A stretch of DNA of 64,000 bases, taken from NCBI RefSeq assembly GCF_018977255.1, contig NW_024704743.1, forward strand, positions 22,446,001 through 22,510,000, read 5' to 3'. Position numbers and translations under genes: made by a program. This DNA comes from Callorhinchus milii (taxonomy: Eukaryota). The notes beneath the pieces were generated by a model. That model was not told the DNA's origin. It did not search any database and saw nothing but the letters and a program-made list of their open reading frames with translations. Positions 6,185 through 27,625 of the stretch are shown here, piece by piece (the stretch's first letter is position 1; each line of letters starts with the position of its first letter).

Positions 6185-6320
6185 GAGTTCTGACAAAAGG
6201 TCATCGACCTGAAAAGTTAACTCACTTTCCTTTCTTTATAGATGCTCCCTAACCTGCTGAGGGTTCCCAGCGACTTCAGTTTTTATTTCAGAATTCCAGC
6301 ATCTGCAGTATTTTGCCTTT
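6185..6320 (+). mobile_element. Penelope-like element terminal repeat with hammerhead-like motif
   Basis: gagttCTGACAAaaggtc-atc-gacctGAAAagttaactc...gatgct..c..acctgctgag...ccagc..cttc.gtttttatttcaga.ttccagcatctgcagtattttg. The same unit flanks the GIY-YIG remnant at 18760-19620. Confidence 0.8.
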
Positions 6321-6739
6321 TAAATAAATTTTTATATATTGAAAAGTTTGAGTCAGCAGATGAAAAAAGGCAGAAAGATATTGTCAAAAGTTATTAAGGG
6401 CAAGTGACTTAAGATTCTCACCAACATTAGGAGAAATGAATTTCTTGCACAGGTGAGATGCGCAAACTTTAGTCTTGCCCCAGTCAAGGCAAAGTCATGG
6501 AGGCTTTATTCATAACTGAATTGCAATGGATGGTGTAATCTGCACAATATCTGCATTACTGCACAGTTTATCATAAGTATAACTAATCTTTGTTGGAAGC
6601 AACAATCTGTACATGGATAATGAAATTGATAAAATGCTCAATTAAACTAAAAAAGTGTGTAAGAGCAGGATGAATGGAGATCAGAGTGAGAAATAAGTTG
6701 AGTGAAAAATGCTGTCAAAACTCTGCAATAAGATAATAA

Positions 6740-7122
6740 TAAATAATAATAATCCTTGCATTTGATATAGCGCCTTATCACGTCTTCGAGACGTCTCAAA
6801 GCACTTCACTATAATATACTGTAAAGAATACACTGTATATTTTGTGGACGAAACACAGCAGCTATTTGCACACAGCAGTGTCCCACAAACAATCGTGGAT
6901 TGAAGTGACCAATTTATTATTTTTAGTANTTTTTTAAGGGAATTATTACCTCTGGAAAAGCAATCCGCCAAATGACTAACAACTGGGTTCCTACTTACTG
7001 CTAGGTAAACGGAGAGGCGTGTGGAGTAAGGAAACTTGACCAACATTTCACCCTGCCGAGAATTGAACCCAGGTCTCTTGCTTGCAAGGTGAGTGTTCTA
7101 GCTACTGAACTACAGGAATCCA
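6740..7122 (-). mobile_element. tRNA-headed SINE family A, long form
   Basis: A/B-box head, tgggcaagtttccttactccacacgcctc core, 3' stem-loop and (ATT)n tail. Confidence 0.9.
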
Positions 7123-8205
7123 TCATGTATGATAATGAATTGAGTTGCAAAACAGTCTCTTCATACTTCATTTACAAACTCAATTTTGTTTAAATTGCCA
7201 CTACATAAATAAAATACATTGGCGTAAAGTACAATCCCAGCAAGCACGATCACTAAAGATACCTTCGACAAACATAAAAGTGAAAGCAGACATAAATAAT
7301 CTAAAAGCCATGTATAATATATAAAAGTACGAGGAGAAATTTAAAAATCTTACATATGCTTCTCATCAAGCTATAAATATTGCACAATGTATGGATTCAT
7401 TCTGTGCAGCATCTGTAAACATGTTTTCTCCCAACTTTCAAAACAAGGCAGCTACATAAATGAGTTGTAGTCTCCACTGGAAACATTCAATGAAGCACTT
7501 AATATAGCATTCACATGCTACAAACTAATGATTTTGCTTACTAAAAGGCCAGGTGAAAATGCTGAGCAGTACTTGTGATTCTAGTAAAATAGCTGTCATC
7601 TACAGAAAGGATTATTGCAAGTCTAATGCACTTTCCTTGCACAGTCCCCTGCCACTCTGTATTCAGTAAACTTTACTCATCGCAATTACTCCTTTGTTAT
7701 GTTGGACTATGTTTTGAAATACAGTACCATTGTAAAGAGAAGAGTGTACCATAATTGAATGATTCTGTAAATTTAGCATTCGATTCAGATTTATAATTCC
7801 CCGTGTATAGTATAGTATTTACTGTTTGTCCTTTTTTAATGTACCTTGTGGGAGACTTTAAACCACACTGAAAGAGTAATTAATATTGAAACTGTCATTT
7901 TTTTTCTTCTTTGCTGCAAATCTCCAGCCCCCTCACAAAGGTTGAGGGAACTACATGAACCTAAAATAAGCCTAAATCCCTGAGTAGTAGTTTGCTTCTG
8001 GACGCCTGCAGTTCAAATCCAGCACAGATGTTGGCAATTTAAGTTTGGACATCTTGAATCAACACGTTTCACCCACAAAATACACCAATCAAAATCCCTT
8101 TACAGTATCCTTGAAGCTCTTTGAAACGTCTCAACAACGTGATGTGGCGCAATTATTATTATTATTATTAGGTGGGAATGAACACCTTGTGTAATTGAAG
8201 AGCTT

Positions 8206-8571
8206 TGGAGTCCTGTAGCTCAGGGGTTAGGGCTCTTGCGTTGCAAGCGAGAGACCTGGGTTCGATTCCCGGCAGCACGAAATGTTGGGCAAGTTTTCTT
8301 ACTCCACACGCCTCCGTTTACCTAGCAGCAAGTAGGTTGTTGTTAGTCGGTTGGCGGTTTGCTTTTCTGGGGGTAATAATTTCCTCAAAAAAACCCAAAA
8401 TAATAATAATAAAACGGTCACTTCAATCCACGACTGTTTGTTGGACACTTGGCTGCCGCGTTTCGCCCACAAAATACAATTCACTTTCAAGTATTTTCTG
8501 TGAAGCGCTCATAGATGTCTCAAAGACGTGATAAAGCGATTTAGCAAATGGAAGGATTATTATTATTATTT
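8206..8571 (+). mobile_element. tRNA-headed SINE family A, long form
   Basis: ggagtcctgTAGCTCAGGGG...GGTTCGATTCC Pol III boxes, anticodon-like TTGCAA (Ala-like), (ATT)n tail. Confidence 0.92.
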
Positions 8572-9994
8572 TAAAGCGCATCTGCAATTCTCACATTTGA
8601 TATCGATGAACATGGTCCCAATTACATAGGATTGGCATCAAGTAGTATGCTTCATATTTACCCTTTCATCACACCAGAATAATTATTGAAACTTACATCT
8701 AAATGGTACTGATTATTAGGTTTGTTATTTGGATTACACAACTGTATAGAGTCAATTACCCAGGTTTCTTGTTTTTAATTGCCTAAAGATTGCCAATTAG
8801 CTTGCCCCTGATTTATAAACCGATCTTAACAGACAGTAAAACTGAAAACTCCCCCAGTGTAGGACACGGCTGCTGAATGCGGTGAACAATAAACCGTGAT
8901 GGACAGGTTATCTGTGAATGATCAGACTGATAATAAGTACTTCAGAACATTTACATTTCCAGAGAGCTACTCTTTTTTGCAGTGTTCAATCAGTTTTTCA
9001 TAGCTATTAGCTGGTAGGGTTAGAGATATATTCTGGATTATTTTTAGGGTTCGGACAGGAGAAACTAAGTTAATGTCAGTGTTATGGATTGATAAGAAAA
9101 TTACAGAAAATTTAGAATTCCTAATCCCACCATTTAATTAATGCAGAATCTTCAATAATACAATATTATTGCTTATTTTTAAAAAAGTTGCAAAATTAAT
9201 AGTAAATTGAACAGAATCTGAAATCAATGATTTGAATGCAATTATCACCCATTTAAAACATATTCAATATTGAAATTAAGTAAGAACTATGCTTTGTATC
9301 CACAGAATAATCAACAGTTAATATTCAGTAAATGTATGCAAAGAGATACAAGATAATATAAAAAGCCCTCCTCTATCCAGACATAAGGCGCTTTATCAAA
9401 TACAAGGATTATTATTATTATTATTATTATTATGCCAAATGACCAACTAACAAAAGACTATCCTTGTTGGAGGGAAATGAGGAAGCTGAGCTAGTTCTAA
9501 AGTAACATGCTTGACAAAAGATTATTGGGAGTTAACACTTTTGTACTCAGTAATCTGGATCTTAAGGCAGGAAGGTCCGCAGTATTTCAGCACTGCTATG
9601 CTGGCAGGTTAGGCGGATTCACCCCAAATTGGACGCATGGATTTCTCAGTTTGGTTTGAATACTCTGAAGCACGGTGATGGTGATTGCATGTGTCAGACA
9701 CCCGGCTAAACAAAAAAAATCACTGCAGCAGGAGGTGGGGTGTGTGCGCGAGTCACCCGGGGATAGACGCCCACTGGGGAGGAGCCGACAAGATGGGAAG
9801 TTGGACTAGTTGGCAGCTCTTCCCAAAGAGCCTGCACAGGCACGATGGGCCGAATGGCCTCCTTCTGTGCTGTAATACTCTATGATTCTATGATTCACTG
9901 GGGGCTGACCGGGGAAGGGCACGCTAGGACCCACTGGACCGTCTTGTCTTGAGTTTACTTACTTACACAGACCCTGAGCGTGAGTGGGGTTTGG

Positions 9995-10140
9995 GAGAGA
10001 TGGAGAGCGAGGGAAGGGAGAGAGAGAGAGAGGAAAGGGAGAGAGGTGGGGGGGGGGGGGGGAAGGGAGAGAGAGGGGAGAGAAAGCGATGGAAGGGAGA
10101 GAAAGCGATGGAAGGGAGAAAGAGGGCGGAAGGGAGAGAG

Positions 10141-10174
<34 letters not shown>

Positions 10175-10239
10175 AGGGAGAAGGGAGAGAGAGAGAAGGG
10201 AGAAGGGAGAGAGAGAACGAGAGGGAAGGAGAGAGAGGG

Positions 10240-10271
<32 letters not shown>

Positions 10272-10445
10272 TGGAGTGGAGAGAGAAGAGAGGGGGAAGG
10301 GATGGGCGAGAGCGCGAGAGAGAGCGCGAGAGAGAGCGAGAGAGAGAGCGAGAGAGCGAGAGAGAGCGCGAGAGAGAGCGAGAGAGCGAGAGCGCGAGAG
10401 AGCGAGAGAGGGGGAAGGGACAGGAGCGAGCGCAAGAGAGCGCGA
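9995..10445. repeat. Polypurine (GA)n / (GAGC)n microsatellite tract upstream of the promoter
   Basis: About 450 nt almost exclusively G/A, grading into GAGAGCGC units. Confidence 0.95.
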
Positions 10446-11323
10446 GGGGGTCGGTCCTGTCTCGTTCCCAACCGCTCGCTCGCTCGCCCGCTCGCTCGGC
10501 CCGAGCCCCCGGGGCCGGCCATTGGAAGAACGTGGCCAAACATCCCCCCCCACCAGACGCGCAGCGCACGCCCTTCGCCCCGGAGCGGCCGAGCGCTCCG
10601 CGTGTCGCAGCGCGGCCACCAATTTAGGTCAACGAAAAGAAACCTTGTAAGGAAAAGTTTACGCTCCCCCCACCCCCCCTCCCCCACACATACAGAAAGA
10701 GGTGTACATTTTATTTATTTTTTGTGTGGGGGGGAGGGGGGGGGGAGAGAGGGGAATGAGCCCCAAAAACCATCCCATTCACACGCAGCGAGGACAAAAA
10801 ACCCGCCCAATTACCCGCCCAAGGCTCTTTTTTTTTGGGGCGCGCGCGCGCGCGGGCGGGCGGGCGGTTTGTCGTCAGGCAGCAGCCAACCGCCCACACA
10901 AAAAAAAACCGCCCAATCGGGCGTGAACCCGCCCGCCCCGCCCCCCCGAAAACCTGGCGACGTTAGTGGTGGTTAGTGCGCAGGCGCGCCGGTTGCCCCT
11001 CCCCTCCCCGCCCCCCTCCCCCCCCCCCGGGCCGGGGCCGCCGTGTGAGCGCAGCGCTCAGTGTCCGGCGCGGAGTCAGGGACGTGTCTCCCTCTCTCTC
11101 TCTCTCTCTCTCCTCTCGGTGTGACTGTGTGTACAGTTACTCCCTCCTCCCCTCCCCTCCCCCCACAACAACAACAACAAACACCGCCCCCTCCCTCCCA
11201 CCCACCCACCCCGGGCCTCCCCCTCCCCCGGGCCTCCCCCCCCCCCGGGCCTCCCCCCCTCCCCCCGGGCCTCCCCCCCCCCCCCCCGGGCCCCCCCTTA
11301 ATAACCGTCACCAGTCACAGACC
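10440..11323 (+). promoter_or_regulatory. CpG-island, TATA-less promoter and 5'UTR of OSBPL10 with GC boxes, CCAAT boxes and an NRF1-type site
   Basis: Sharp CpG/GC enrichment against an AT-rich background. GGGCGG/CCGCCC repeats (about 10855-10945), CCAAT near 10619, 10807 and 10913, TGCGCAGGCGCG at 10977-10988. Confidence 0.85.
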
Positions 11324-11703
11324 ATGTTGGGCGCTGAGAAGGCTGGTCCGGGCGGCGGGGCCCCCCCCACCGCCGCCACCACCACCACCACCCTGTCTCC
11401 TGCCGGTAACGGGCACGGCAAGGCGAGCGTGAGAAGGCACTCCGCCTCCCCGGGGGAGCGGGCGGCACCGGCACCGGTACCGGTACCCGGGGCCGGCAAA
11501 GCGGGCAGCAACCGCAGCAGCGGCAGCCCCAGCCCCGGCTCCGGCTCAGGCTCAGGCTCCGGCTCCGGCTCAGCCCCCGGGAACATGGTGGAGGCGGCGA
11601 GGACACCGGGAGAGCAGCAGCAGCAGCAGCACCCGGAGGCTGGCAGAGTGGTGGAGGGTTTACTCAGCAAATACACCAACCTGATCCAGGGCTGGCAGAA
11701 CAG
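11324..11703 (+). CDS. OSBPL10: Oxysterol-binding protein-related protein 10, coding exon 1 (Gly/Ser/Thr/Gln low-complexity N-terminus plus start of PH domain, ...VEGLLSKYTNLIQGWQNR)
   Basis: ACCATG at 11321-11326 inside a CpG island. Translation ends EGLLSKYTNLIQGWQNR, matching recalled human ORP10 EGVLSKYTNLLQGWQNR. Donor AG|GTGAGG at 11703/11704, phase 2. Confidence 0.93.
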
Positions 11704-12025
11704 GTGAGGGGGTGAGGGGTGTGGGGAGGGGGTGAGGGAGGGGGTGAGGGGGGTGGGGAGGGGTGAGGGGGGTGTGGGGGGGGGAGAGAAGTTGCTTCGG
11801 TTTTAATCGGGAACTTCCCCTGCGGGAGGGGGAGAGGGAAGGGAGAGGGGGAGGTGGTGCAGAGGGAGGGAGAGGGAGGGAGAGGGGGAGGTGGTGCAGA
11901 GGGAGGGAGAGGGAGGGTGGGAGAGAGGGAGGGAGAAGGGGAGGAGGTGCAGAGGGAGGGAGAGGGAGGGAGAGGAGGCAGAGGGAGGGGGAGAGAGAGG
12001 GAGGGAGGGAGGGAAGGAAGGAAGT
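11704..12025 (+). repeat. G-rich low-complexity tract ((GGGGGTGA)n then GGGAGA/GGTGCAGA units) at the start of intron 1
   Basis: Visible directly. Confidence 0.9.
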
Positions 12026-13009
12026 GTGTGCACTCCCAACCACCTCTTCTCCAGGCTGAAAGGTTACTCCTTTTTGCACTGGATACATTATATATATATA
12101 TATATATATATTATTTATAGAGAGAGAGAAATACTTACTTATACTATTAAAAGGTGCCATTGCATAATGTCACAAATCCCAGCAAACACAACCACCCCAC
12201 CCCACCCCCACCCGAACTGCTTATTTTGTGACAGCAGCACCCAAAATGTTACCACTTGACATTGCAGATCAGGAATGCTGTCGCTGTTGTTTTGGTGGCG
12301 ATGCTGCCTTTTTGCACGATGCACAGTGTTTTGTTAATCGCTCAGCGCGGCGAGCGTGACTTAAACGGACTGCTCGGCACCGATCATTTTGCAGTGTGCT
12401 TCAAATTTAGCACGACTTCAATAGTCAAACGTAGAAACGTGCCACTCGCTGCCCATTCCAGCTTTGGTGAAATAGTCGTTTCAAATGCATTTGTGATTGT
12501 AGTTTGGGTCAGCTGGCAATCTCGAGCGTGCAGAAGCCCTTTGCAATACTTCCCAGAAAACTTAACAGGAGCAGTGTTTCTAGTTTCTGGAGTGAACAGA
12601 CTGCCCCTCAGATGGGGCATACGGGACTTGCTTACATCTAGAGGACATAAGTGCGGGATGGTAGAAGCCAAGGCATTAGGGAGCCAAACATGTGTATTGG
12701 GGTACTGCTGGATGAAGGATCTAAAACCGTGAAGGTTTTAGATCCTATAAGACAGCTTTTGATTTCTTGCCCAAGTTGGGTCTCTTTAGCCATTGGATCA
12801 TTGGCTTATCGTAAGTTGCGTGGGAAAATTCCTCCACTGTTCGCCTCTGGACAGAATTCTACCTACCTCCTCTTTTTGCCGCCTCGTACCATATAAGTGA
12901 ATGGCGTGTATATGGGTGGTGGATAATTATTGGCTTTGGTACTGACTGCATCGACTTGGATAGATGCTCACTCCACCGCATAGCGCTGGTCTGGAACCTC
13001 AGTATCTTT

Positions 13010-14630
13010 TTTGACCCTCAACTGTCATTCTAGCCTTATGAGAATTTCACTCGCTCAGTTTTCCCTCACCTCTACAACATTGCTTTCTTCCTTCTGTCTT
13101 CCTGGGCTGCTGAGATCCTCGTTTGCTCTTTCATCGCATCCAGACTTGACTGTTCCAATGTCCTGCGTGCCAGACTGTCCATCTCTTGCCCACACAAGCT
13201 GCAGAATATCCAGAACTCTAGGACTTGTGTCGTGTACCACACTGGCTTCTGCGAACCAATCAACCCCTCCTTGCTCAGCTGCAGGCACTCCCCATTCCCC
13301 CCAGCAGTGACTGCGAATCGACTAACAACTGGGATCCTACTTACTGCTAAGTAAACAGACTTAGGTGGAGTAAGGAAACCTGAATAGCATTTCGCCCTGC
13401 CGGGAATCAATCCCAGCTTCTCTCGCTTGCGAGGTAAGTGCTCTAAACACTAAGCAACAGGACTCCACAAATGGTAAACGCAGACTGGATTCTGCACTGC
13501 CCACAGCACTGAGACAGCGCTTGTCAAAGTCACAAATGACGTCCTCCCTTTTGTGTGTCCAGAGCTCCCTCTGCCTCCTTGTCCTCTCTGCAGCGTTCGA
13601 CAGTAGATCATGCCATTCTCCTTCACTGCCTCTCCCTCATACACCTCAGTGGGACTGCACTTGCCTGATTCGAGTCCTATTTAACCAATCACCATCACTT
13701 CGTCTCCACAGACATTTTTTCCTCCCGCCCCCTTTCGATTACCTGTGGTGTATCCCAAGTCTTCACCCTTGGCCCTTCCTTTTCCTTATTTACATGCTCT
13801 CTTTGGTGATGTCATCCGCAGACACGGTGTAAACTTCCACATGCATGTGGGACACCCAAATCTGCTTCTCCGGCCGCGACTCCAGGTCCGTTGATCTTCT
13901 GAGAGCTTGTTTGCTGGACATCAAGGCTGAGATGAGCACTAGGTTTCTGACTTATTCAACCTCTCGAGCTACCGAGCCTGTACATAACCTAGGCGTCAGA
14001 TTTGATCCCCGACTGTCCTTCCTACCCCACATCCCATTCCTAACCAGGAATGGTTTCCTCCACCCATATCATATTGCCCACCTCCGACTGTACCTTGTAC
14101 CCAATGTAGCCAAGACCCTCGTCCACGCTTTCTTCACCTCCCGCCTCGATTAATCCAATGCGCTCCTCGCTGGTCTTCACGGCTCTCCTGTGCACAAAAT
14201 CCAATTCATTCAGAACTCTGCTGCCCATATACTCACCCACGCCAGGTGCCATTGACTCCCTATCACGGAACAAATTGACTTCAAAGATCCTCATACTTGT
14301 CTACAAATCTCCTCATATCCTTGTATCTCCCTATCTTTTCGGCTTGCTCCTCCTCCTCACTCCACCACCCGTCACCTCTCCTCGGCTGACTGCTTGTCCT
14401 TTGTCCCCTCCGCTCCACCATTGGCGACCATCCTTTCAGTCACGATGTCCCCGAAAGTTTGGAACACTCTCCTTCAGTCTCTCTGCCTTGTCCCCTGCTT
14501 CCCCTTTTTGAGAGCACGGCTGGAGACCTTCCTCTTCAATTGTGCTTATGGTTGTCTCCTCCCTCCCCTCGGCTCGGCGCTCAGAGACCCCACATGAAGG
14601 GTTCTGTATAAATGCAAGTTGTTGTAAAAG
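13010..14630 (+). mobile_element. L2 LINE ORF2 fragments (decayed RT) interrupted by a minus-strand SINE-A 5' half at about 13312-13470
   Basis: HSTETALVKVTND, LSAAFD, LFLIYM, VHNLGVRFDPRLSFLPHI, KTLVHAFFTSRLD motifs in shifting frames; L2 tail at about 14610-14625. Confidence 0.9.
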
Positions 14631-14819
14631 CTTGCATGCATGTGATTGTACAGGAATTCGTATGCTGTGACCCCCATTATAATATAGCACCTCCTCAAAT
14701 ATTGGGAAGACTGCTTTGGTAAAAATAAGTAAGATAGTTGTTTTCACGTTTTTGTGATCGCGACTTAAAAAAAACATAGGAATAGAACTGAACAGTACTG
14801 GAGGTGGTCAATATATATT

Positions 14820-14960
14820 TATACTGTTGCCATGTTTACCTTTATATTTATTTTTATATCATGTCTTTTTTGTACTGTTGCCATGTTTACTTTTATGTTT
14901 ATTTTTATTTATATAATTTTTTTGTACTGTTGCCATGTTTACTTTTATGTTTATTTCTCA
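14820..14960. repeat. Three-copy minisatellite (tactgttgccatgtttacttttat.tttattt..., period about 52-55 nt) abutting a SINE 3' fragment (14960-15115)
   Basis: Unit starts at about 14822, 14874 and 14926. Confidence 0.85.
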
Positions 14961-15239
14961 CAATTGCTTGTGGGACACTGCTGTACGCAATTGGTTGCCG
15001 CATTTCGCCCACAAAATACAGTTAATTCACTTTACAGTATATTTTGTGAAGATCTTTGAGATATCTCAATTAATTGATAAGGTGCAATATCAAAAGCAAA
15101 GTTTAGTATTATTATTTGTTGTTTATATACTTGCTTTATATACTTCATATATTTCCCTTTCACTTGGAATAACTTTCATTTGCTTGAGTTTCTTTAGTAA
15201 GTATCAGCAATGTAGAAATGTCCTTTTTTTTAAAAAGAA

Positions 15240-16110
15240 AATTTGTATCGCGCTCTTCATGTTGGAAAGACGTCCCAGGGCGCTGGACAGTCGGGGATTT
15301 TTGGACCCGAGTTGGGGTCAGGAAGGGTGGAGGGGAGGTGGGGGTGGGAGGGTGGCTGAAGGCACCGTCGAAGCGGGAGGTCTTTAGACGGGACTTGCGG
15401 GGGGAGAGCTTTGGAGGGCTTTGAAGGTGAGAACGAGTGTTTTGTACTCGATTCTCTGAGGGATGGGGAGCCAGCGAAGCCGGGCAAGAACAGGGGTGAT
15501 CGGTTCGCAGAACCTGGTGCAGGAGAGGACATGAGCTGCAGAGTTCTGAATAATCTGTAGCTTGTGGAGGGAAGAGTTGGGAAGTCCAGCGAGCAGGCAG
15601 TTGGCGTAGTCAAGGACGCGATGAAAGCGTGGACACGGGGTCTCGGTCTTGGCGGCCTGCGGTAGGAGGCAGGGGCGGAGACGAGGAATGTTGCAGAGGT
15701 GGGGAAAGGTGGAACGGGTCACCGCGCGAATGTGGGGCTTGAAGGATAGCTGAGGGTCAAAAAGGACACCGAGGCTTTGTATTGGTGAGGAGTGCAGCTA
15801 TGAATAGTGATAATGTCAGCGGCTGACGTGAAGAGGCGTTGCCAGGAGCCAAGCAGGAGGGCCACTGTCTTGCCAACATTGAGCTGGAGGAAGTTGGCTC
15901 TCGCCCAGGGCTTGATGTCAGACAGTCAATTAGCCAGGACATCAATGGTCCTGGAGTCGAAGGTGGAGACGGTGAGTTAGAGTTGGGTGTCATCCGCATA
16001 CATGTGGAAATTGAACCCATGCCTGCGGTTGACATCACCGAGCGGAAGTATGTATGGATTGCAGAGGAGGGAGAGCGAGGACGGAGCCCCGAGGGACGCC
16101 CACAGCCCTT
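15240..16110 (-). mobile_element. L2 LINE ORF2 3' part
   Basis: [52 protein letters not shown] on the minus strand, with the L2 tail at the left end. Confidence 0.92.
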
Positions 16111-16584
16111 TTGGTCAAAGTTCCCATTGCTTGGGATCACTTCTGTTTTCAAAAGAGGAATCTGTTAGCTTTTGTTGCAGAGGTGGAACATTTCATTCAG
16201 CATCTATTATCATTGTGTCTATTCAAAAACAATTTTTAAAAAGTCCTTAAGGTGAAGTGTTAATAATACTCTTATCACCCATTATTAGAATTACCACTTA
16301 TTCTTTGGGACCTAGTTTTCAACCTACGTCAAAATCAGTTACTATAATAACTTTGCTTTGTGGTTCAACAGAAATATTTTAGTGTGATTTAGCTAAAATA
16401 AGTATCCGTTTGCTAATGCTAAATTTGGTCTCTTTTTGTTCCACTTCGAAAATGAAGCAAATCGTTCCTACTCGGGGAGGAAATTTAGCACCTTTCTTAA
16501 ATTTCTCATCTAATTAATTTAATCTAGAATTAAAGGTTGGTAATTTACTTTGGCAAAGTGGATATTTCGTCTTGGCAGCTCATG

Positions 16585-16875
16585 TTGTCAGGCTGACTCA
16601 GTTGGTAGCTTATCACTCTTGCTTCTGAGTCAGAACGTTGTGGGTTCAAGCTGCCTCTCAGGATTTTTAACTCAATCTGAGTTGACACTCCAATGCTGTG
16701 CTGGGAATGCGGCATTTTTGGAGGTTCAATCCTTCAGATAAACGAAGAAACCATCTGCATGTTCAGGTGGAGGTCAATATCCATTGGCACTATTTGAAAA
16801 GAGAAGGAAGCCATTAATCCTCGAGTTGATTTGTATCATAGCTGTGTGCAAATTGGCTGCTCTATTTGGCCATAT
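16585..16875 (+). mobile_element. Deu-domain SINE, degenerate
   Basis: ctcagttggtagc...ctgagtcagaacgttgtgggttcaag head, ccttcagataaacg / ttggcactatttgaaaagag Deu-like core. Confidence 0.65.
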
Positions 16876-17464: not shown

Positions 17465-17690
17465 GAATAATAATCCTTGCATTTGATATAGCGCCTTATC
17501 ATGTCTTCGAGACATCTCAAAGCGCTTCACAGAATACACTGTCAAATTAATTAAATGTATATTTTGTGGGCAAAACGCGGCAGCCAATTACACACAGCAG
17601 TGTCCCACAAACTGTCGTGGACTGAGTGACCAGAATATTTTAAAATTTATTTTTTTGCGGGGATTATTATGACTGGAAAAGCGATCCGCT
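17465..17690 (-). mobile_element. SINE family A 3' portion
   Basis: Same tail and body as the 6740 copy. Confidence 0.85.
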
Positions 17691-18756
17691 TAACAATAAC
17701 AACTTGCATTTAAATAGTGCCCTGCATACAGGGTAGCGTTTCAGAGCGCAAATACAAAAATAAGTTTTGTATTTGTTCCACGTTCTGCATCTCGAATGCA
17801 TTGATGACCTTTTAAGCGATGAGATGCCACAAACTACACTATTTAAATGTAGCTTCACAAGTGATCTGAACAACTTCAGAATAACTTTAGTCTTTCAGAT
17901 TAATTCTGTCATTTATTTTGCTTCACATCAACTGGTAACATTTAGCGAAAGGTCAATCTATCCAGATCCATTTTTTATTAAATGGATATGAGACTTGTGC
18001 TTTTTTTGTTCCAATATTTAGTTACATTTATGTACGTAAAAGTCAGTCTTGCATTCCTTGCTTATTACCCAGTTGATTTGGACGTTGGCTGCACAACTTT
18101 GTGTTCAATATTGTTTATGAACAGTGTGAACAGTAGGGATTCCAGAATAACCCTCTGTTACTATCTCAGTCGCAGCCTTTTCCATTTATTATTCTCTGTT
18201 TCCTATTACCAAGTGAGATTCCAATCAGTTGGCTAATTTGCATCAATTCCATGAGGTTTAACACTTCCTTTTCAAAGTTTAAGTAATTTGAATCAATCTT
18301 CTTCATCTGCTAAATGTAGTTACAAATCTGTGGGGAAACTTTGAAAAAGTTTCAATGCCTTATTATTGCTTCTACATCAACAAGAGCAGACAAAATGGTA
18401 AAATTAACCATGTCAAGTCTTGACTATCTAAGAGTTTACCAGCAAATAAAAGATCAGCAATAAAGCTGATCACTGGGCAAACCGGACAGAACTATTGTCT
18501 GCTATGTCTTCATTGCTAACTTGTGTACATTTTGATTTTCCAGAATAATGGCTGATATATAACAAGAGGTGTGCTGTGTCAACTCAATTAACACTCCCAG
18601 CCCACACCCTTGGTTTAAGTTGACTTGTTCACAGGAGTGTTGAGCAATTTGCTGAGTTGTGTAGCCTTCGTATTTCTTTTCCTCCCTGTGGTAAAATGCC
18701 TAAGCTGTTAATCATTGCTCCCACTTAGCATACTGACTAAGCGAATGAGGTTAAAC

Positions 18757-19620
18757 AAAAGGCAAGGTACTGCAGATGCTGGAAATCTGTCATAAACACA
18801 GAAGTCGCTGGAAACATGCAACAGGAAAGGCAAAATCCATGGAGAGAGGAAAATGAGTTAAGATTTCAGGTCTATGACCTTTCGTCAGAACTAGGGGATG
18901 TTGGGAGTAGATTATAAGGACAAGCAGAGAAGGGGGCGGGGAAAGAAAGACAAAAGTAAACATTTTTAGATGGAGGACAGAAGATGATGATAATCATAAT
19001 CCTTGCCTTATGTAGAGCGCCTTATCATGTCTTCAAGACGTTTCAAAGCGCTTCACAGAATATACCGTAAAGTGAATTGACTGCATATTTTGCAGGTGAA
19101 ACGCAGCAGCCAGTTGCGCATAGCAATTGGAAAAACTGGAAAAGCGATCTGTCAATCGACTAACAACTGGGTTCCTACTTACTACTAGGTAAACAGAGGC
19201 GTGTGGAATAAGGAAACTTGTGTAACGTTTCGCCCTGCTGGGAATCAAACCCAGGTCTCTCGCTTGCGAGGCAAGTGTTCTAACCACTGAGCTACAGGAC
19301 TCCCACGAGTCATGATGAAATTAGAGGTGTTGATGGTGCAAGACAAGAGGCAATAGCGGAATTATAGAACGAATGCACATCTAAGAACCAGAGAATGTGT
19401 TAATTGGTTATAGAAGAGGATGCGGGGAGGCAAGGCTGAGAGAAGGTGGGAGCTGTGGTTAGGGTCCGAAGTGATTGAAATCAACGTTGAGGCCAGAGGG
19501 CTGTAAGGTGCCCAAGAGGTGGATGAACTGCTGTTCTTCGAGCTTGCGTTGAGCTTCGTTTGAACAGCGTAGGAGGCCATGGACAGAGAGGTCACAATAG
19601 GAGTGGGAAGGAGCAAATGA
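18757..19620 (-). mobile_element. Penelope-like retroelement 3' end (GIY-YIG endonuclease C-terminus plus terminal repeat), interrupted by SINE-A at about 18990-19305
   Basis: Minus strand about 19611-19459 translates PSHSYCDLSVHGLLRCSNEAQRKLEEQQFIHLLGTLQPSGLNVDFNHFGP*, the typical PLE GIY-YIG tail (E...I..LGTL.P.GLN). Terminal repeat at 18757-18893. Confidence 0.85.
18990..19305 (-). mobile_element. tRNA-headed SINE family A, long form with internal deletion, nested in Penelope
   Basis: Head ggagtcctgtagctcagtggttag at the right end, tail at the left. Confidence 0.9.
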
Positions 19621-20556
19621 GGTTGCGTGCGTGTCTTTTGGGGAATTGTGGATACAAACTCACATCCTCTATGGCTCAGCATATCAGTAGCCCAACGTTG
19701 CTGTGGCACCCTGCAGCCTAAATTACAAAAAGATAGTTCAGTTTATTTGTGACAAGACCAACGATAATAACTGTCTTGAGACAGACCTTGAAGGAGGTGA
19801 AGAAAGGGGTCAGGCAAAACTACTTAGAGATGGAGTTCCGGAGAGTGGAGGCTGATAGGCTGAAAAGCCGACAGCGAGGGTGGGCAGGGGTTGTGACGCA
19901 GGCTAGTGCCCGCTGAGTGAGGGCGCGTGTGGGTTGATAAATTTTAAGAATGGTGCAGAGGAAGCGTGTGGCCAAAGGGATGTAAAAGTGTGGATGAGGA
20001 TCTTGCGCTTCATCCTCTGGGGGACGGGGAGGCAATGGATCTGGGAGGGGGCAGGGGTGATTTTTAGAGCCTAGTTTTAAGGACCATGTCTATAATTTCT
20101 ATAGGTTTACCTTTTTTTCGTCAGCTGGGTATTTGACACACTTGGAAATTAATCTTGATTATGAATCTGCAAACCAAGCAAATTTCCATATGTAAGTATG
20201 GTAATCATTTGTCTGATATGGAGTGCACGCTCTTTTCCCAGAGGAATGCTCCTGCTTACCTAATCTTGGAAAGTTTAGATGCAGGTTGGCAAGAAGTATA
20301 GTTTGGGGATGCCAGATTGTACACCTAAAACTGCAGTTTACCATTGTGAATCCTGGTATGCTTCCTGCTGCTGTCCAGCTATAACCACCTTACTCATTAA
20401 GGGTTTTGACTTACAGTGTTAACAGGAGCTGAGTGGGAAGAATCCCATTCCCTGGGGGCTGGTTTGCCTCTCCAAGTGTTACTAACAAACCCGGTGGCTG
20501 GTCTAATATCAGTCGTGCCTTTGAGTATTGTGTACAAGCCTGACTGAACAACTGAA

Positions 20557-20798
20557 CGCAAAATACTGCAGATGCTGGAAATCTGAAACAAAAACCGAAG
20601 TCGCTGGGAATGCTCAGCAGGTCAGGCAACAGCTATGGAGAAAGGAAAGCAAGTAAGCGTTTCGGGTCCACAACCCTTCGTCAGAACCGAACTTCAGTTC
20701 TGATGAAGGGTCGCGGACCCAAAAGGTTGACTCACTTTCCTTTCTCCACAGGTGCTGCCTGAGCCGCTGAGTTTTCCCAGCGACTTCTGTTTTTATTG
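20557..20798. mobile_element. Inverted pair of Penelope terminal repeats forming a fold-back element
   Basis: Left arm (about 20585-20687) is the reverse complement of the right arm (20697-20798); 9-nt spacer. Confidence 0.85.
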
Positions 20799-21304
20799 GA
20801 CAACTGAAGACTGTCACAGAAGGAGAATGCTCAGCTGCAAAGATAATGGCATTTCAGTATCACAGAGCTAAATTTAAATGTGGACTTACCAGTTCATTTT
20901 TCAGGTTACATGATCCATTTTGACCTGACCCAATGCCCCCGAGGGGCATTGCAGTGCATGATTAGCTTTGCTGATGATTGCTTCACGTGGACTTCATTCT
21001 GTCAGTGACTGGTTAACAATGCATCCCAATCAGTCTTTGCTGTTGACATCCATCTGTTTTACGCTTGTTTCTTGTATGTACTATCTTGCAGTTGGCCATG
21101 TTATCTGCTTAATATCTCTTTGAATGCTATCATTTACCCATAAGCAAATAGTCTGATCATGTAAGCTGGAGACGTCAACTTTTATTAAAAAAATTAAATA
21201 CTTCTTGCCATTTTTTATGATGTATGTAAACAGCTGGGGATCCAAAGCAAATACTTGATGAATTCCTCAAGCTACTCTTTGCCCAACAAGCAAGCCCTCT
21301 TCAT

Positions 21305-21865
21305 CTTATCACCAGTTACCCATTCCGCCTTTCCCCACCTCTGCAACATTGCTCGCCTTCGCCACTGCCTCTCACTGCAGGCTGTCGAGACCCTGATCCA
21401 CGCTTTCATCGTGTCCTGGCTTGACTACGCCGACTGTTTGCTCGCTGGACTTCCCAACTCTTCCCTCCACAAGCTGCTGATTATTCAGAACTTTGCAGCT
21501 CGTGTCCTCTCCTGCACTAGGCTCTGCGAACCTGTTGCCCCCGTTCTTGCCTGGCTTCACTGGCTCCCCATCCCTCAGAGGATCGAGTACAAAACACTCC
21601 TTCTCACCTTCAACGCCCTCCACGGTCTTGCTCCCCCCTACATTTACGACCTCCTAACCCCATATCAGCCTGTCCGCTCCCTCCGCTCGGCAGACACCAG
21701 CCTACTTCAGGTCCCCCGCACTTCCTGCCCCACCATTGGCGGTCGGGCATTCAGCATCTCTGCCCCCACATTCTGGAACTCTATCCCCCAATCCCTCAGC
21801 CTCACCCCTCTCCTGCTTCCTTCAAGCCTTGTCTAAAGACCTTCCTCTTCGACTTTTCCTTCGGC
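21305..21865 (+). mobile_element. L2 LINE ORF2 C-terminal fragment, largely intact reading frame
   Basis: ETLIHAFIVSWLDYADCLLAGLP...PVLAWLHWLPIPQRIEYK...RSLRS...GGRAFS..APTFWNSIP. Confidence 0.93.
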
Positions 21866-21894
21866 CAGGTAGTACTGGTGTTATATTAATAATT

Positions 21895-22280
21895 AATAAT
21901 AATAAATCATCCTTGCACTTGATATAGCTCCTTACTTATCATGTTGCTGAGACTTCTCAAAGCACTTCACAGAATATATTGAAAAGTGGATTGACCATAT
22001 ATTTTGTGGATGAAACGCGCACAGCAGCTAATTGGGGACAGCAGCCTCCCACAAACAGTCGTGGATTGGGTGACCAAATTATTATTATTTTTTTGGGAAG
22101 GGATCATTACCCCCAGAAAGTGATCCACCAATTGACTAACAACTGGGTTCTTACTTACGGCTAGGTAAACAGAGGGTTGGAGTAAGGAAACTTGCCTAAG
22201 GTTGCGCCCTGCCAGGAATCAAACCCCAGTCCTCTCTTGAGGTGAGGCGAGTGCTCTAACCAATACACTACAGGACTCTA
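21895..22280 (-). mobile_element. tRNA-headed SINE family A, long form
   Basis: Alignment by eye to the 8206 copy. Confidence 0.88.
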
Positions 22281-22569
22281 TGCTGTTCTGCAGATATTTC
22301 CAATCCATATATATGTTCTGGTAATGATCATTGAAAACCATTTACCACCAAAGGAAATTCTAAATTGGCTGAAAAAGCACGATTGTAAAGATCTTCAATA
22401 CAATAGCGAAAGACCTTTTAAATTGTCTTTTAGTGGCAATCTCGCTGAATAATACATTGTTTTGGAAATCATTGTACATACATTTTACTTGTAAGATCTT
22501 CAATGGCACAAGATTTTTAGTAGAATTCAAATGAAACCAGGTCCAAAGTACACTTGAGACAACTATTGT

Positions 22570-23480
22570 GAGGATCCTAAGCACGATCGAAGAGGAAAGT
22601 TTTCAGGCAGAACTTGAAAGAGGGGGCAACACGGAGGGATTCGGGGAGAGAGTTCCAGAGTTTGGGGATGTAGTGGCTGAAAGCACCACCTCCGCTGGAG
22701 GGTACGAGGGACGAGCAGGAGGCTTGTGCCAATTGAGCGGAGGCACTGGGTGGTGGATTGGGGAGTGAGGAGATCGGAGCGGTAAGGAGATGCCAGGAAG
22801 TGAATGAATTTGAACACGAGAGTGAGAATCTTGAAGTTGATCCATTCGGTGATTGGGAGCCAGTGGAGCCTGGCCAGAACATGTGGACATTTACGCAGGG
22901 GGAGCATATAGATGAGGAAAAGAAGAGGATGGAGCCCTGGGGTACCCTGTAGATGACCGGGCGGGGGTGGGAGGAGAAACCATTTGCTGAGATTAAATGC
23001 AGGCGGTTGGTTAAGTAGGTCTCGAATCATGCGAGTGCAATCTCACTAAGGTAGATGAGGGAGGAGGGCTGATGGAGGAGAATGGCGTACTTGACTTTGT
23101 CGAACACGGCAGAGATCCAGGAGGACGAGGTGGCAGAGATAGAAAGAATGGAGTTTGTGACTTTGACAATTGCTGTCTCTGTGCTGTGGGCAGGGTGAAA
23201 ATCAGACTGCAGGGGCTCGAGGAGAAAGAGGTGTGACCGAAGTTGACCTTCAGCAATGCGTTCCAGGACTTTGGCAAGGAAGGGTATGTTGGAGATGGGA
23301 CGGTAGTGTGAGAGATTAGAGAGATCGAGGGTGGTTTTTTTGAGTAGAGGTGTGATGATAGTGGCTTTCAGGGGGTGTGGAACAGGGCCTGAGGAGAGAG
23401 ACTGGTTGACCGTGTCGACCAGCAGTGGGGAAAGAAGGGGGTGTTGGGGAGGATGATGCAGCCGAGCGGATGTTCTCAAT
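22570..23480 (-). mobile_element. L2 LINE ORF2 fragments with internal deletions
   Basis: ITPLLKK..LD.SNLSHYRPISNIPFLAKVLE, QSDFHPAHSTETAIVKVTN, HVLARLHWLPI. Confidence 0.92.
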
Positions 23481-23564
23481 TTTTACTCGGGCCTTTCCTG
23501 TTTCTTCTATGCATTAATGACCTGGATTTGCAGACAATGTAGGCTACTTAAAATTGCAAATGAG

Positions 23565-23815
23565 TTGGGGGAATTGTGGAATCAGGGGCGGTGGCAAATT
23601 TCTTGGAAAGAGAGCTTGGTAGGGTATGCAGATGGACTGGTAGCTGACAAATGAAGTTCAATAAACCGATGCTGCATATAAGAAGCAAGAATAGCAAATG
23701 CGTGTACTTCATGGATGGAATAGAACTTGTCAAGGGAGAGGCTAGAACAGATCTAGGGGTCTTAGTTGACTCAACACTCACCATATCAAAACAGTGGGAG
23801 GCAGCAAAAAAACAA
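23565..23815 (+). mobile_element. CR1-type LINE RT C-terminal fragment
   Basis: QMKFN...LHI...N...Y.MDG.EL......DLGVLVDS.L motif. Confidence 0.8.
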
Positions 23816-24214
23816 GACAAGCAGGATACTGGGCTAGTATCTGCACGATATCTATTCACCCGAGTAGGGTGCTTGATAGTTAGTAGCATGAAAATTAATT
23901 GCCAGTGTAGGCATGGTCTCGATGTGGTCTATCATTCAATCCATATAAAATGCTTATATTTTGAATATATAACTTGGGGAAATACATGGGTATCTGCTTT
24001 CCTTTTCTCCATATTGGAATTGGTTTACTGGTTATTTCCTAGCAACTGTCATCTAGTGATGATGAAATGATCTTATTTGGCACCTTTCATGTCGGAAGGA
24101 TCCCTGAAAGCGCTTTCCCAAAATTTACTGTAAATCGTGGTGACTGTACTTTGCACGTGAAAGCAATGGCCACTTTGTGCACAGTAGTGTGCCACAAACA
24201 ACCATGTATAATAT

Positions 24215-24585
24215 AATAATAATCCTTGCATTTTATATAGCGCCTTCTTAAAGTGCTTCACAGGATGTACTATAAGGTGGTGTGAATGTGCATTTTGTGG
24301 GTGAAACGCAGCAGCCAGTTGTGCACAGCATTGTCCCACAAATAACCATGAAGTAAGTGATGAATTTTATTTGGGGTATTTGTTGGCCAGGACCCTGGGA
24401 GAAACTCCCTCCTCTTTTTGAATAGTGACATGGCATCTTAATATCTATGCGCACAGGCAGATACGACCTCGGTTTAACGTCTCATCCGAAGGACTGAACC
24501 TCCAAGAATGCATCGCGGCCCCAGCACCTTTTGGAGTATCAGCTTAGACTGTGTGATTCCAAATCCCGACCAGAGCTGGAACCCA
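24215..24585 (-). mobile_element. Deu-domain SINE (best-preserved copy), flanked by further SINE/L2 tail pieces
   Basis: Minus strand gtccttcggatgagacgttaaaccgaggtc...ttaagatgccatgtcactattcaaaaagag...gggtcctggcc matches the recalled Deu domain of AmnSINE1/SINE3-type elements. Confidence 0.8.
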
Positions 24586-25544
24586 CAATAATAATAATAA
24601 TAATCCTTGCATTTGATATAGTGTCTTATCACCTTTTGTCTCAGAGGCAAGAGTGCCATCACTGAGCCAAGCTAACAGTGAAGTGAATGACAATTTGTTT
24701 TCCTCCGGGGAATTATTGGCTGTTAAAGTGAAAGGTAGACTGGCCCAAAACCACCCCAAAGGTACCTTGAGAACTTAATATGAATTCATTTCTGGTAATT
24801 ACAATATTTACAACCTTAAAAACTATGTCAGTGTAAACCAATTTCTTCTGTTTGGTTGTGCACTAGAACATTATTCACTTTTATTACACCAGTTAAACTG
24901 TCATGTTATCCATTTCCATTAAGCAAGTACACTCGTGTACTGCACAGTGGCACACATGGACTGGCTACTGCAGTTGAGTCTGTTCAGCTTAACAATAAAT
25001 CATGTTTGCTATTGGCAAGAAATGGATTAGACTGCCAAAGAGGTGTTGATTGGACTGTTTAGTAAAGCTGAAGAAATGACCTGAATGTACAACACAATAG
25101 ACTGACTGGAAACCTCGAAGTGTCGGCAGTTTCTCCCTCTCCCGTAGATTTTTGTTTATCACAGAATATTTTAGGGTGCACAGTGGGGGGTGTAAAATGC
25201 ATTTGTTACAAACTGGATTAGTTGCATTGCAAATTCTGGTTTGCAAACGTTGGATTGTGACATTTGCAAAATGGTACATCTTGAATCAAACGCCACAAGA
25301 TATCTCAAGTGGAAGTCACTGTAAATGCAGCCATTTCCAGTTAGCAAATATTTCGCTTTCAGCCCCAGTGTAGATTCTGTCTGCAGTGAATATATTAATA
25401 ATAATCCTTACATTTAGTATAGTGCATTTTAAGTCAGGAGGACATCCCAAAAGATTTGACAAGATGTACAGGATGTACTATGTAGTGCAGTGACTGTTTT
25501 GTCAGTGAATTTGCAGTCAATTTGTGCACAGCAATGTCCCACAA

Positions 25545-26195
25545 CAACAAGATTCCATTTATTGAGCGCCTTTCATGTCGGGAGGACGTCCCAAGGCGCT
25601 GTACAGTTGGGTCAGGACCCGAGCAGGGGGGAAATGGTCAGGGTGAGGGGAGGGAAGGGAGCAAGTTGGGGGGAAATGGTCAAGGTGAGGCGAGGGAAGG
25701 GAGGGAGCGAGGAGGGGGTAGAGAGTCGAGAGGGGAGCTGAAGGCTCGGTCAAAGAGAAAGGTCTTGAGACCGGCCTTGAAGGAGGAAAGGGAGGAGGCG
25801 GCGAAGGCACTGAGGGATGGAGTTCCAGAGCCTCGGGGCTGAGAGGCTGAAGGCCCGGCCACCGATGGTAGGGCAGTTGGGGTGGGGGATGTGGAGCAGA
25901 TCGTAGCCAGAGGAACGGAGGGTATGGCAGGTAAGTAACCATGAAGTGAGTGATCAATTTTATTTGGGGAGTTGTTGGAGAGGACCCTTCTCTTTTCAAA
26001 TAGTGCCCTGGGATCTTTAATTTATTAAAGGTAACTAGTTTAAAATTTTGTCTGAAGGATGGCACCTCCAACCAAGCAGCACACCCCCAGCACTGCAATG
26101 GAGTGTCACCTTAGAAGATATGAGTTTAAAGGCTTAACGTGGGGCTGGAACGCACAAACTTCTGACTCGTAGGTGAGTGTCACCGACTGAGACGA
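25545..26195 (-). mobile_element. L2 3' end (25545-25930) inserted within a Deu-SINE (25395-25545 plus 25930-26195)
   Basis: LWNSIPQ..FKAGLKTFLF and L2 tail. Deu-SINE body resumes at aaccatgaagtgagtga after the L2. Confidence 0.75.
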
Positions 26196-27487
26196 CCTGA
26201 TGCATATAAAGAATCAAGTTACTATCACCTGAATGCTTTCTTTCAGAATATCAAATGCACAAACTGGTGTAGCTGAAGTTGTTTCTTATGCTGCTGATTG
26301 ATATGTTGCACTTTACAGAGCACGTTTTGTGATGCGTGGAACTTTCCAAACTCCTTTGCATTGACGGTAGTTGAAATCTGAAAGTGAGCCTGGATATTCC
26401 AGTTTGTTTCTTCCTGTTTTTATTTCTCAGCTCTTTAAGGTGCTGGGATACAGTTTTTTGTCAACATTAGATATTTTTGGTGTGTGAAGCTTGTTAGTGG
26501 GTAATTGATTGTGAACCAGTCGTGGAAGTAGGACAGCTCAGGTGTGGATCCCTGACTGTCCAGCGCCTTGGGACGTCCTCCTGATGTGAAAGACCCTATA
26601 CAAATGTAAGTTGTTGTTGTTGTTTGACAGTGTTTCCCTTCCCAATTGCAGTGCTGCCTTAGTACTGCCCTGGAAGAGATCAGCCCCCATAGAATAGCTT
26701 CCAAGTGTGCACAGTCTGTATAAGCAGGTTCTCTGTTGGTTATTCTTTAGCTTTAACTCGTAGAAACATAGAAAAAAGTAAATCTACAGCATAGAAGGAT
26801 TTGGCTCATTGAGTCCACAGCGGCTCACAGAGCGCATGTCTTGTAATGTCCTTGATTTCGTAGAAGGTGGCCTGATCGAGTCCATCCCGTTATTATAATT
26901 ATTCATTTCAAATATTTCTTTGCTGGAAACTGAACTGTCACTTATCTCTGATATTGCTTTGGAACTCAATACAGGTGATGCATAAAAGGCTCTGGGTGAT
27001 TTAGCATAGAAGACAAGAAAGGCCAATCAAGCCAATTTCTTCCACAGAATAGGATTAATTTGCTTTACCAGGGGCTTAATCTGACAACTCTAATATCTTG
27101 AGGGTAAAAAAGGGAATTAAGTGAAGAATGTCCATCTCTAGCCCTTCATTATTTGATTGAATAATGAAACTGTGGCCGAACTGAAGCTTTCCATGCTCCT
27201 AGTAGCCCAGCCAAATCCTGCACCATGCAGAATTTTTCCCATTTTAGGTTAAATTTTTTGATATTTTTTTTCTCTCTCCACTTAATGTGGGAACGTAACT
27301 TGCTTTCATCGTTCTGTGATCTTAGCTGATGTAAAATAAGCAAGAATTTTATGGCGAGGATTTAGTTCTGCATTTGTACTCTTAAGACAAACAATAGCTG
27401 TAATTCCTTTTCCTCTTTGAAGACTAATGGATGCTTCAACGTCCCTTTGAAGGTAGCAGGCCCAAAATGACATCCAGTATCCTAAAC

Positions 27488-27625
27488 AAAAGGCAAAATA
27501 CTGCAGGTGCTGGAAATCTGAAACAAAAACAAAAGTCACTGGGAACACTCAGCAGGTCAGGCAGCATCTATGGAGAAAGGAAAGTGAGTCAACATTTCGG
27601 GTCCACGACACTTTGTCAGAACTGG
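27488..27625 (-). mobile_element. Penelope terminal repeat with hammerhead-like motif
   Basis: Same unit as 6185-6320 in reverse orientation. Confidence 0.8.

What the first reader, a model, noticed from the sequence alone, without database searches (positions are those of the whole stretch)
6185..27623. Five minimal type-I hammerhead-ribozyme-like motifs in Penelope termini, with stem II covariation
Seen at 6185-6223 (+), 18855-18892 (-), 20652-20687 (-), 20696-20732 (+) and 27586-27623 (-). Consensus AGUU-CUGAYGA-A-(G/A)GGUC-nnn-GACC(C/U)-GAAAC-GUU-RACU. Stem I is (G)AGUU/RACU(C). Stem II covaries (AGGUC/GACCU in two copies, GGGU(C/U)/GACCC in two). Stem III is reduced to the palindrome ACGU, which could only form in a dimer. 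Knowledge: Penelope-like elements carry minimal hammerheads with palindromic stem III that cleave as dimers. Unusual points are the GUU cleavage triplet and an extra A after the CUGANGA box. Every copy here has at least one core or triplet change (several at CpG positions), so these copies are probably inactive while the consensus may be active.
Basis: partly seen in the sequence, partly recalled or inferred. Interest (0 to 1): 0.7.

Follow-up and report, generated by a model that had tools for sequence, protein, structure and literature searches.

The report
Decayed Penelope-retroelement minimal hammerheads

Summary
All five motifs are present. They form four insertions of one very abundant Penelope-like element (PLE) family, apparently in a cartilaginous fish. 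Copy 2 lies downstream of a GIY-YIG endonuclease C-terminus, inside one 9-bp target-site duplication (TSD). Copies 3 and 4 are a single head-to-head insertion with its own 9-bp TSD. Thousands of contigs from public runs restore an intact core (G8 82%, C15.2 76-78%, GUU fixed), so the stated refutation test is passed in silico. Each local copy carries a lesion. The motif is the published PLE minimal type-I hammerhead. In Cervera 2014 Fig. S3 the extra nucleotide occurs in 54 of 56 examples and GUU is the commonest triplet (15 of 56), so neither is unusual. The G-C/A-U change is real in this species but marks one subfamily split. Family copies end at two sites about 38 nt apart (the known tail). 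Many begin at the motif's first bases rather than at its cut site, which suggests uncut templates. This scan has noted the same thing many times: 284 notes in at least 27 genomes, 103 in this genome. Cleavage is untested.

The parts
6186..6222 (+). c1 minimal hammerhead, A-U stem II subfamily; G8A and C15.2A
6186..6321 (+). c1 stub: hammerhead plus long-form tail, starting at the motif's first base; no clean TSD
18753..19615 (-). c2 whole 5'-truncated PLE insertion: endonuclease end, pLTR, nested SINE, hammerhead, tail
   Evidence: 9-bp direct repeats at both ends; tblastn
19459..19614 (-). last ~50 codons and stop of a GIY-YIG endonuclease of PLE type
   Evidence: E 1e-9 to 2e-13
18985..19303 (-). 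tRNA-derived SINE nested in the pLTR of c2 (ends approximate)
18856..18892 (-). c2 minimal hammerhead, A-U subfamily; core intact, stem III palindrome lost
18744..18752 (.). TSD of c2, left copy (AATGAGGTT)
19616..19624 (.). TSD of c2, right copy
20557..20688 (-). c3 stub with long tail; hammerhead 20652-20688, G-C subfamily, U16.1C
20696..20797 (+). c4 stub with short end (no tail), head-to-head with c3; hammerhead 20696-20732, G12A and C15.2G
20548..20556 (.). TSD of the c3+c4 insertion, left copy (ACAACTGAA)
20800..20808 (.). TSD of the c3+c4 insertion, right copy
27587..27623 (-). c5 minimal hammerhead, G-C subfamily; G8A, G10.2U, C15.2U
27483..27724 (-). c5 fragment: about 100 bp of upstream pLTR shared with c2, hammerhead, long tail; no TSD found

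Best explanation
The five motifs are mutated end-pieces, in four separate insertions, of a very abundant endonuclease-bearing Penelope-like retroelement whose end repeat carries the known minimal type-I hammerhead, predicted to cut 3' of GUU only when two copies pair through ACGU. Shown: family relationship, endonuclease linkage in c2, TSDs for c2 and c3+c4, intact family-majority core, lesions in every local copy, and discrete 3' and 5' end clusters. Inferred from published PLE work: the element's GIY-YIG domain nicks the target, and reverse transcription starts inside the element RNA about 100 or 140 nt downstream of the motif's start, giving the short and long ends. It then runs back through an uncut hammerhead. 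Some cDNAs continue upstream (c2, c5); many stop at the motif's first bases (c1, c3, c4), sometimes yielding a head-to-head pair (c3+c4). In the parent element the ribozyme likely acts weakly, as a dimer or with help from the element's protein. The genomic copies here likely do nothing.
For: c2's upstream peptide matches 54 proteins at E<=0.001. Of 9 of them scanned, 5 carry a GIY-YIG match and 2 an RT match. P0054 has RT, a DKG motif, a Cys linker and GIY-YIG. The endonuclease match starts at 19614 and the TSD starts at 19616. On c5, 12,517 contigs of run X1 and 26,405 of X11 were laid; depth-weighted majority letters in X1 are G8 82%, G10.2 96% and C15.2 78%, and U16.1 and U17 are not listed as variable. 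On c1, C15.2 is 76% in X2. 3' loose ends cluster at 27483/27487 and 27521/27525 (145, 136, 148, 191 contigs in X1), 38 nt apart. This matches the 30-40-bp tail between two RT start sites in PMC11167929 and the one-sided tail on inverted insertions in Craig 2021 and PMC3846280. 5' loose ends with low-agreement flanks lie at 27622 (100 in X1, 165 in X11) and at 6187/6188 (63 and 43 in X2). The motif is no better conserved than the tail across the five copies (24 of 185 against 43 of 459 differences).
Against: No full-length element was seen: only about 50 codons lie in the window. Endonuclease linkage is shown for 1 of 4 insertions. No exact TSD was found for c1 (best 7-mer, in AT-rich DNA) or c5. 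Pfam does not hit the window peptide itself. Rfam does not recognise the motifs. The restored motif folds best as a rod in which GACG pairs with CGUU (-10.8 kcal/mol against -8.2 for the hammerhead frame), and the active dimer (-14.5) is far less stable than a stem-II-swapped dimer (-28.3). Percentages from contigs are depth-weighted and are not copy counts.
Confidence: 0.88

Rival explanations
1. The 100-140-bp stubs are an independent non-autonomous family, SINE- or retrozyme-like, that is transcribed and copied on its own, rather than by-products of the full PLE RNA.
For: Sharp shared 5' start in c1, c3 and c4 and in many contigs. Retrozymes are reported to derive from PLE pLTRs (preprint 10.64898/2026.07.22.740005).
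Against: c2 and c5 continue into the same upstream pLTR, and so does the consensus of the 99 loose ends at 6186 in X2. There is no head-to-tail tandem in the window. A retrozyme monomer would begin at the cut site (established model), not at stem I.
Confidence: 0.12
2. The motif has lost catalysis in this lineage and is kept as a plain hairpin or protein-binding signal.
For: The predicted inhibitory rod fold. Many copies start upstream of the cut site, so their templates were uncut. In the Anolis PLE, ribozyme mutants did not affect insertion in vitro and no RNA-seq ends mapped to the cut site (PMC11167929).
Against: All catalytic positions are intact in the family majority in organisms A and B. 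The G-C/A-U swap keeps stem II paired. The Anolis motif does cleave once protein is added.
Confidence: 0.2
3. The fixed 5' boundary is a splice junction, not a transcript start: a pyrimidine tract plus YAG precedes the motif, as in D. virilis Penelope, where the intron ends at helix I.
For: c5 and c2 read CCCCAG and CCCTAG directly before UUCUGA. D. virilis precedent. 43 (X2) and 62 (X14) contigs start at 6188, just after the AG.
Against: No shared upstream exon appears in the loose-end consensus (agreement 0.36-0.39), and 63 contigs in X2 start at 6187, on the G.
Confidence: 0.15
4. One of these copies has been domesticated as a regulator of the host OSBP-related gene.
For: Four motifs lie downstream of the gene's apparent first exon. 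c3+c4 could form a roughly 100-bp hairpin (-138 kcal/mol).
Against: Every copy is lesioned, the motif decays as fast as the tail, and only c4 (G12A) lies on the gene's strand.
Confidence: 0.02

Closest known systems
[quoted passage not shown]
   Same: Type I topology, CUGANGAH core with the extra nucleotide, short stem I, palindromic 15.2-16.2, NUH triplet including GUU, mostly dispersed single copies, and opposite-strand pairs close together.
   Different: No cartilaginous fish appears among the 56 rows of Fig. S3. One subfamily here has A10.1-U11.1 in place of the usual G-C; that pair appears in 2-3 of the 56 rows. Stem II is short (5 bp, 3-nt loop).
PAc, Poseidon PLE of Anolis carolinensis, Frangieh et al. 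2024, PMC11167929 (read: parts 1-2 of 4)
   Same: Hammerhead about 100-130 nt upstream of two internal RT start sites that define an optional 30-40-bp tail; unprocessed RNA used as template.
   Different: Probably another clade: homologues here carry a Cys linker between RT and EN, described for Neptune/Nematis. A fixed 5' stop at the motif's first bases was not in the parts I read.
Inverted-pLTR insertions of EN+ PLEs: Pen2a_Av, PMC3846280 (passages); Craig et al. 2021, 10.1101/2021.04.23.441226 (passages)
   Same: Head-to-head inverted end repeats, a tail on one end only, 8-10-bp TSDs, and a pLTR plus tail that overlaps the ORF start.
   Different: Here the whole c3+c4 insertion is only 241 bp and has no ORF between the repeats.
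Non-LTR retrozymes of animals (preprint 10.64898/2026.07.22.740005; part 1 of 5 and passages)
   Same: Type I hammerhead, PLE-related, reported from one chondrichthyan genome.
   Different: Those are head-to-tail tandem repeats; these copies are dispersed or head-to-head.

Membership tests
PLE minimal hammerhead (min-HHR) | Type I order with stems I and II | tested here: met
   Stem I 3-4 of 4 pairs and stem II 4-5 of 5 pairs in all five copies
PLE minimal hammerhead (min-HHR) | Intact CUGANGA and GAAA boxes | tested here: met
   Met by the family majority (G8 82%, G12 88% in X1; one G>A place in X1 not shown). Boxes intact in 2 of 5 local copies, c2 and c3
PLE minimal hammerhead (min-HHR) | Extra nucleotide between 9 and 10.1 | tested here: met
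   A in 5 of 5 copies; published trait
PLE minimal hammerhead (min-HHR) | G10.1-C11.1 pair, highly conserved but not universal | tested here: inconclusive
   Met in c3, c4, c5; A-U in c1, c2 and their subfamily; A-U has precedent in 2-3 of 56 rows
PLE minimal hammerhead (min-HHR) | Palindromic 15.2-16.2, no monomeric stem III | tested here: met
   Family majority C15.2 76-78%, G16.2 about 89%; ACGU is self-complementary; 0 of 5 local copies keep exact ACGU
PLE minimal hammerhead (min-HHR) | NUH cleavage triplet | tested here: met
   U16.1 and U17 show no variant at 5% or more in the four runs or in X1; GUU is listed among active NUH sites in a passage of PMC3138052
PLE minimal hammerhead (min-HHR) | Self-cleavage as a dimer or with protein | not testable with these tools
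   Needs an in vitro assay; folding favours inactive forms
EN+ Penelope-like element | GIY-YIG endonuclease at the ORF end, upstream of the pLTR | tested here: met
   c2 only
EN+ Penelope-like element | RT in the same ORF | tested here: inconclusive
   Seen in homologues P0054, P0175; no PLE RT in the window
EN+ Penelope-like element | Optional 30-40-bp tail, inverted 5'-truncated copy, short TSD | tested here: met
   38-nt spacing of 3' ends; c3+c4 inverted with tail on one side; 9-bp TSDs for 2 of 4 insertions
Neptune clade of PLEs | Cys Zn-finger linker between RT and EN; RT phylogeny | tested here: inconclusive
   Linker seen by eye in homologues P0008, P0054, P0175, not in the window; no tree built; Nematis shares the linker
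Non-LTR retrozyme | Head-to-tail tandem units, each with a hammerhead | tested here: not met
   No tandem among the 5 copies in the window; not tested genome-wide
Rfam hammerhead families | Match to a covariance model | tested here: not met
   No hammerhead family among 48 matches at E<=5

The most novel reading that the evidence does not exclude
The element's RNA is capped at the first base of the hammerhead (CCAGTTC fits an initiator). The abundant 100/140-bp stubs are then strong-stop-like cDNAs: copies of the uncut RNA front end from the internal RT start back to the cap, inserted alone or folded back. The ribozyme would sit at +1 to +33 of the transcript, where cutting would remove the cap and switch the RNA from message to something else, and the genome would hold a base-precise record of the first step of PLE reverse transcription.
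Probability: 0.35. Interest if true: 0.5.

Novelty: new member of a known kind. Interest (0 to 1): 0.18.

Why it matters
As a catch it extends a known ribozyme class to a cartilaginous-fish PLE family that is absent from the 2014 alignment; my search for shark + Penelope + hammerhead ribozyme returned one paper, which uses 'shark' only for the shape. That is a modest addition. The only part that touches an open question, what PLE hammerheads do, is the end pattern: many copies start at the motif's first bases, not at its cut site, so they were made from uncut RNA. Earlier notes of this scan already record that pattern in this and other genomes.

Tried and rejected
No whole genome is held, so family statistics come from contigs of public runs, not from a genome-wide copy count. 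Exact-pattern scans of viral and metagenome contigs found 0 matches each. The word-based protein search with the 43-aa peptide found nothing. One search was wasted: P0001 is a receptor gene model with a PLE fragment at its end. No RNA holder was listed; the runs guessed to be RNA show the same loose ends as DNA-like runs and say nothing on expression, splicing or cleavage. I could not confirm that the frame opening at the ATG after the motif (MLPDLL...) is the PLE ORF start: no match among 175 proteins on hand or in the Atlas. The alignment of c2 upstream of its SINE with c5 was unconvincing. No TSD was found for c5; for c1 only an AT-rich near-repeat. My chance figure for a shared 9-mer (0.00065) is for 15-nt flanks, while the searches used 37-100-nt flanks, where chance is roughly 1-4% each; the support comes from the repeats lying directly at independently defined ends. 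Two acceptor-like tracts downstream of the cut site were considered as intron ends: the first AG is missing in c2 and in about 20% of depth in organisms B and C, and splicing was not testable. A 5' end cluster at the cut site was not among the loose ends shown, but 879 and 703 rows were hidden. Lunse et al. 2017 (PMC5785218) was not available; I saw only its citation and a review's summary. Supplements of the two bioRxiv papers are closed, and those of PMC11167929 were not read; they may bear on shark families and on 5' ends.
Full report
Observation. The five motifs are in the sequence at the stated places, and c3 starts one base further out, at 20688. Each heads a shared body of 100-136 bp, 73-87% identical between copies, and no sixth copy exists in the window. 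A structural descriptor hits 3 of the 5 with up to two mismatches, against 0.08 hits per composition-matched random window (12 trials). Rfam has no matching hammerhead model at E up to 5. Split by hammerhead numbering, every copy has a lesion: c1 G8A and C15.2A; c2 C15.2U and G16.2C; c3 U16.1C; c4 G12A and C15.2G; c5 G8A, G10.2U and C15.2U. Five of these are CpG-type changes. The motif differs from the five-copy majority at 24 of 185 positions and the tail at 43 of 459, so nothing suggests selection on these copies.

What carries the motif. About 570 bp upstream of c2, beyond a nested tRNA-derived SINE, lies a 50-codon frame ending in a stop at 19459. It matches 54 proteins at E<=0.001. Of 9 scanned, 5 carry GIY-YIG and 2 an RT match; the peptide aligns to their extreme C-termini. 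Of 7 looked up, the 5 with an organism name are skate and ray gene models, and a longer relative is from a shark, so the host is likely a cartilaginous fish. An earlier scan note calls it a chimaera; I did not check that. A 9-bp direct repeat lies at 18744 and 19616, directly outside the tail end and the start of the endonuclease match. c2 is therefore one 5'-truncated PLE insertion, which ties the motif to the endonuclease. c3 and c4 are head-to-head inside another 9-bp repeat (20548 and 20800), with the tail on c3 only. The same layout, including a 9-bp TSD and a one-sided 31-bp tail, is described for Pen2a_Av (PMC3846280, passages) and in general by Craig et al. (passages). c5 shares about 100 bp of upstream pLTR with c2. 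No clean TSD was found for c1 or c5. Homologues carry a Cys linker between RT and EN, which points to the Neptune type, but no tree was built.

Family consensus. No genome is held, so I laid contigs of public runs on c5 and c1 at 80% likeness. On c5, 12,517 contigs were laid from X1 (the window's species) and 26,405 from X11 (another species). Depth-weighted majority letters in X1 are G8 82%, G10.2 96% and C15.2 78%; CpG sites show 11-14% decay; U16.1 and U17 are not variable at 5%. On c1, C15.2 is 76% in X2 and 68-86% across the four runs, and U16.1 and U17 again show no variant. The majority is thus AGUU CUGACGA A GGGUC GUG GACCC GAAA C G U U GACU, with an intact core. These figures are depth-weighted and are not copy counts.

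Covariation. In the window's species, contigs that follow c5 through stem II keep G10.1 (no variant at 5% in X1). A second class breaks off at 27603 with a consensus that reads A10.1 and an AUC loop (91, 41 and 12 contigs in X1, X5, X7). Contigs that follow c1 through stem II keep U11.1. So G-C and A-U are two subfamilies, not CpG decay. The limits: this is one event, tied to loop changes; I could not count the pair per molecule; and one loose-end consensus in X11 (256 contigs, agreement 0.59) reads A10.1 with C11.1, which may be column mixing or a real mismatch class.

Are the unusual points unusual? No. Cervera and De la Pena 2014 (PMC4209133; main text parts 1-2 of 4) name the nucleotide between 9 and 10.1 and the palindromic 15.2-16.2 as conserved traits, and they mention opposite-strand pairs. 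My hand count of the 56 rows of Fig. S3 gives an extra nucleotide in 54 rows (A in 30), GUU in 15 and GUC in 14. The less common trait is A10.1-U11.1, present in 2-3 rows. No cartilaginous fish is among the rows. A search for shark + Penelope + hammerhead ribozyme gave one irrelevant paper; a 2026 preprint reports retrozymes in one chondrichthyan (passages).

How it likely works. 3' loose ends cluster at 27483/27487 and 27521/27525 in X1, and at mostly the same places in the other three runs, 38 nt apart. c4 has the short end and the other four the long end. In the Anolis PLE, RT starts internally at two sites that define this tail, uncut RNA is the main template, and the hammerhead cleaves only with protein (PMC11167929, parts 1-2 of 4). 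By inference the same holds here. 5' loose ends with unrelated flanks cluster at the motif's first bases (27622: 100 in X1, 165 in X11; 6187 and 6188: 63 and 43 in X2, beside 99 at 6186 whose consensus continues into the upstream pLTR). Of the 15 joints shown, 8 are strand switches that use 27618-27624. Such copies contain the whole motif, so their template was not cut. Folding agrees with weak or gated activity: the restored motif prefers a rod in which GACG pairs with CGUU (-10.8 against -8.2 kcal/mol), and the active dimer is less stable than a stem-II-swapped one. c3 and c4 lie on opposite strands and cannot form the dimer.

Why the 5' boundary? I favour a transcript start at the motif: CCAGTTC fits an initiator (consensus recalled), and c1 has one G between an AT-rich near-repeat and the motif, which could be a copied cap (n=1). 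A splice junction is the rival: YAG precedes the motif, and in D. virilis the intron ends at helix I, with the start about 120 nt upstream. RT stalling at the hairpin is also open. Contigs cannot decide this. A search for Penelope + pLTR + transcription start listed two papers; I saw no statement of this boundary in the passages read.

Earlier scan notes. 284 notes in at least 27 genomes hold the same key words, and 103 in this genome. Several give the same verdict and the same 5'-boundary reading. I had noted the boundary and the initiator fit before reading them; the word 'capped' came from one of them. They are not independent support.

Verdict. The claimed oddities are the norm for the class. 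New member of a known kind; interest 0.18.

Noticed in passing
window 11300-11707 (+): GC-rich apparent first exon of an OSBP-related gene; its last 22 codons match the start of the ORP11 PH domain (E 0.007). Three of the four downstream motifs are antisense to it.
   Followed up: partly
window 20587-20797: c3+c4 can form a hairpin of about 100 bp (-138 kcal/mol) in the gene's likely first intron, a possible RNA-editing substrate.
   Followed up: no
window 20689-20695: The 7-nt spacer between c3 and c4 repeats the motif's first bases (GTTC-G-GTTC on the minus strand); the loose-end consensus at 27622 hints at the same short repeat (low agreement). It may record RT slippage at the template's 5' end.
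   Followed up: no
window 27484-27567 (-) and equivalents: An ATG about 20 nt after the motif opens a frame (MLPDLL...) without a stop through the tail in all long copies; it may be the PLE ORF start.
   Followed up: partly
window 6220-6290 (+) and equivalents: Two acceptor-like tracts (pyrimidine run plus YAG) follow the cut site; they could exonize in host genes.
   Followed up: partly
window, e.g. 7048-7119, 8209-8280, 19230-19301, 41854-41925, 54675-54746, 62746-62817: At least ten copies of a tRNA-derived SINE of about 320 bp score as tRNA in Rfam.
   Followed up: no
P0001, P0004, P0008 (database gene models): Skate and ray gene models with host names (neuromedin-U receptor 1, ATP synthase subunit C3) end in this PLE endonuclease fragment: annotation error or exonization.
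   Followed up: no
window 33221-33265 (+): Weak Rfam histone 3' stem-loop match below the gathering score, probably chance.
   Followed up: no
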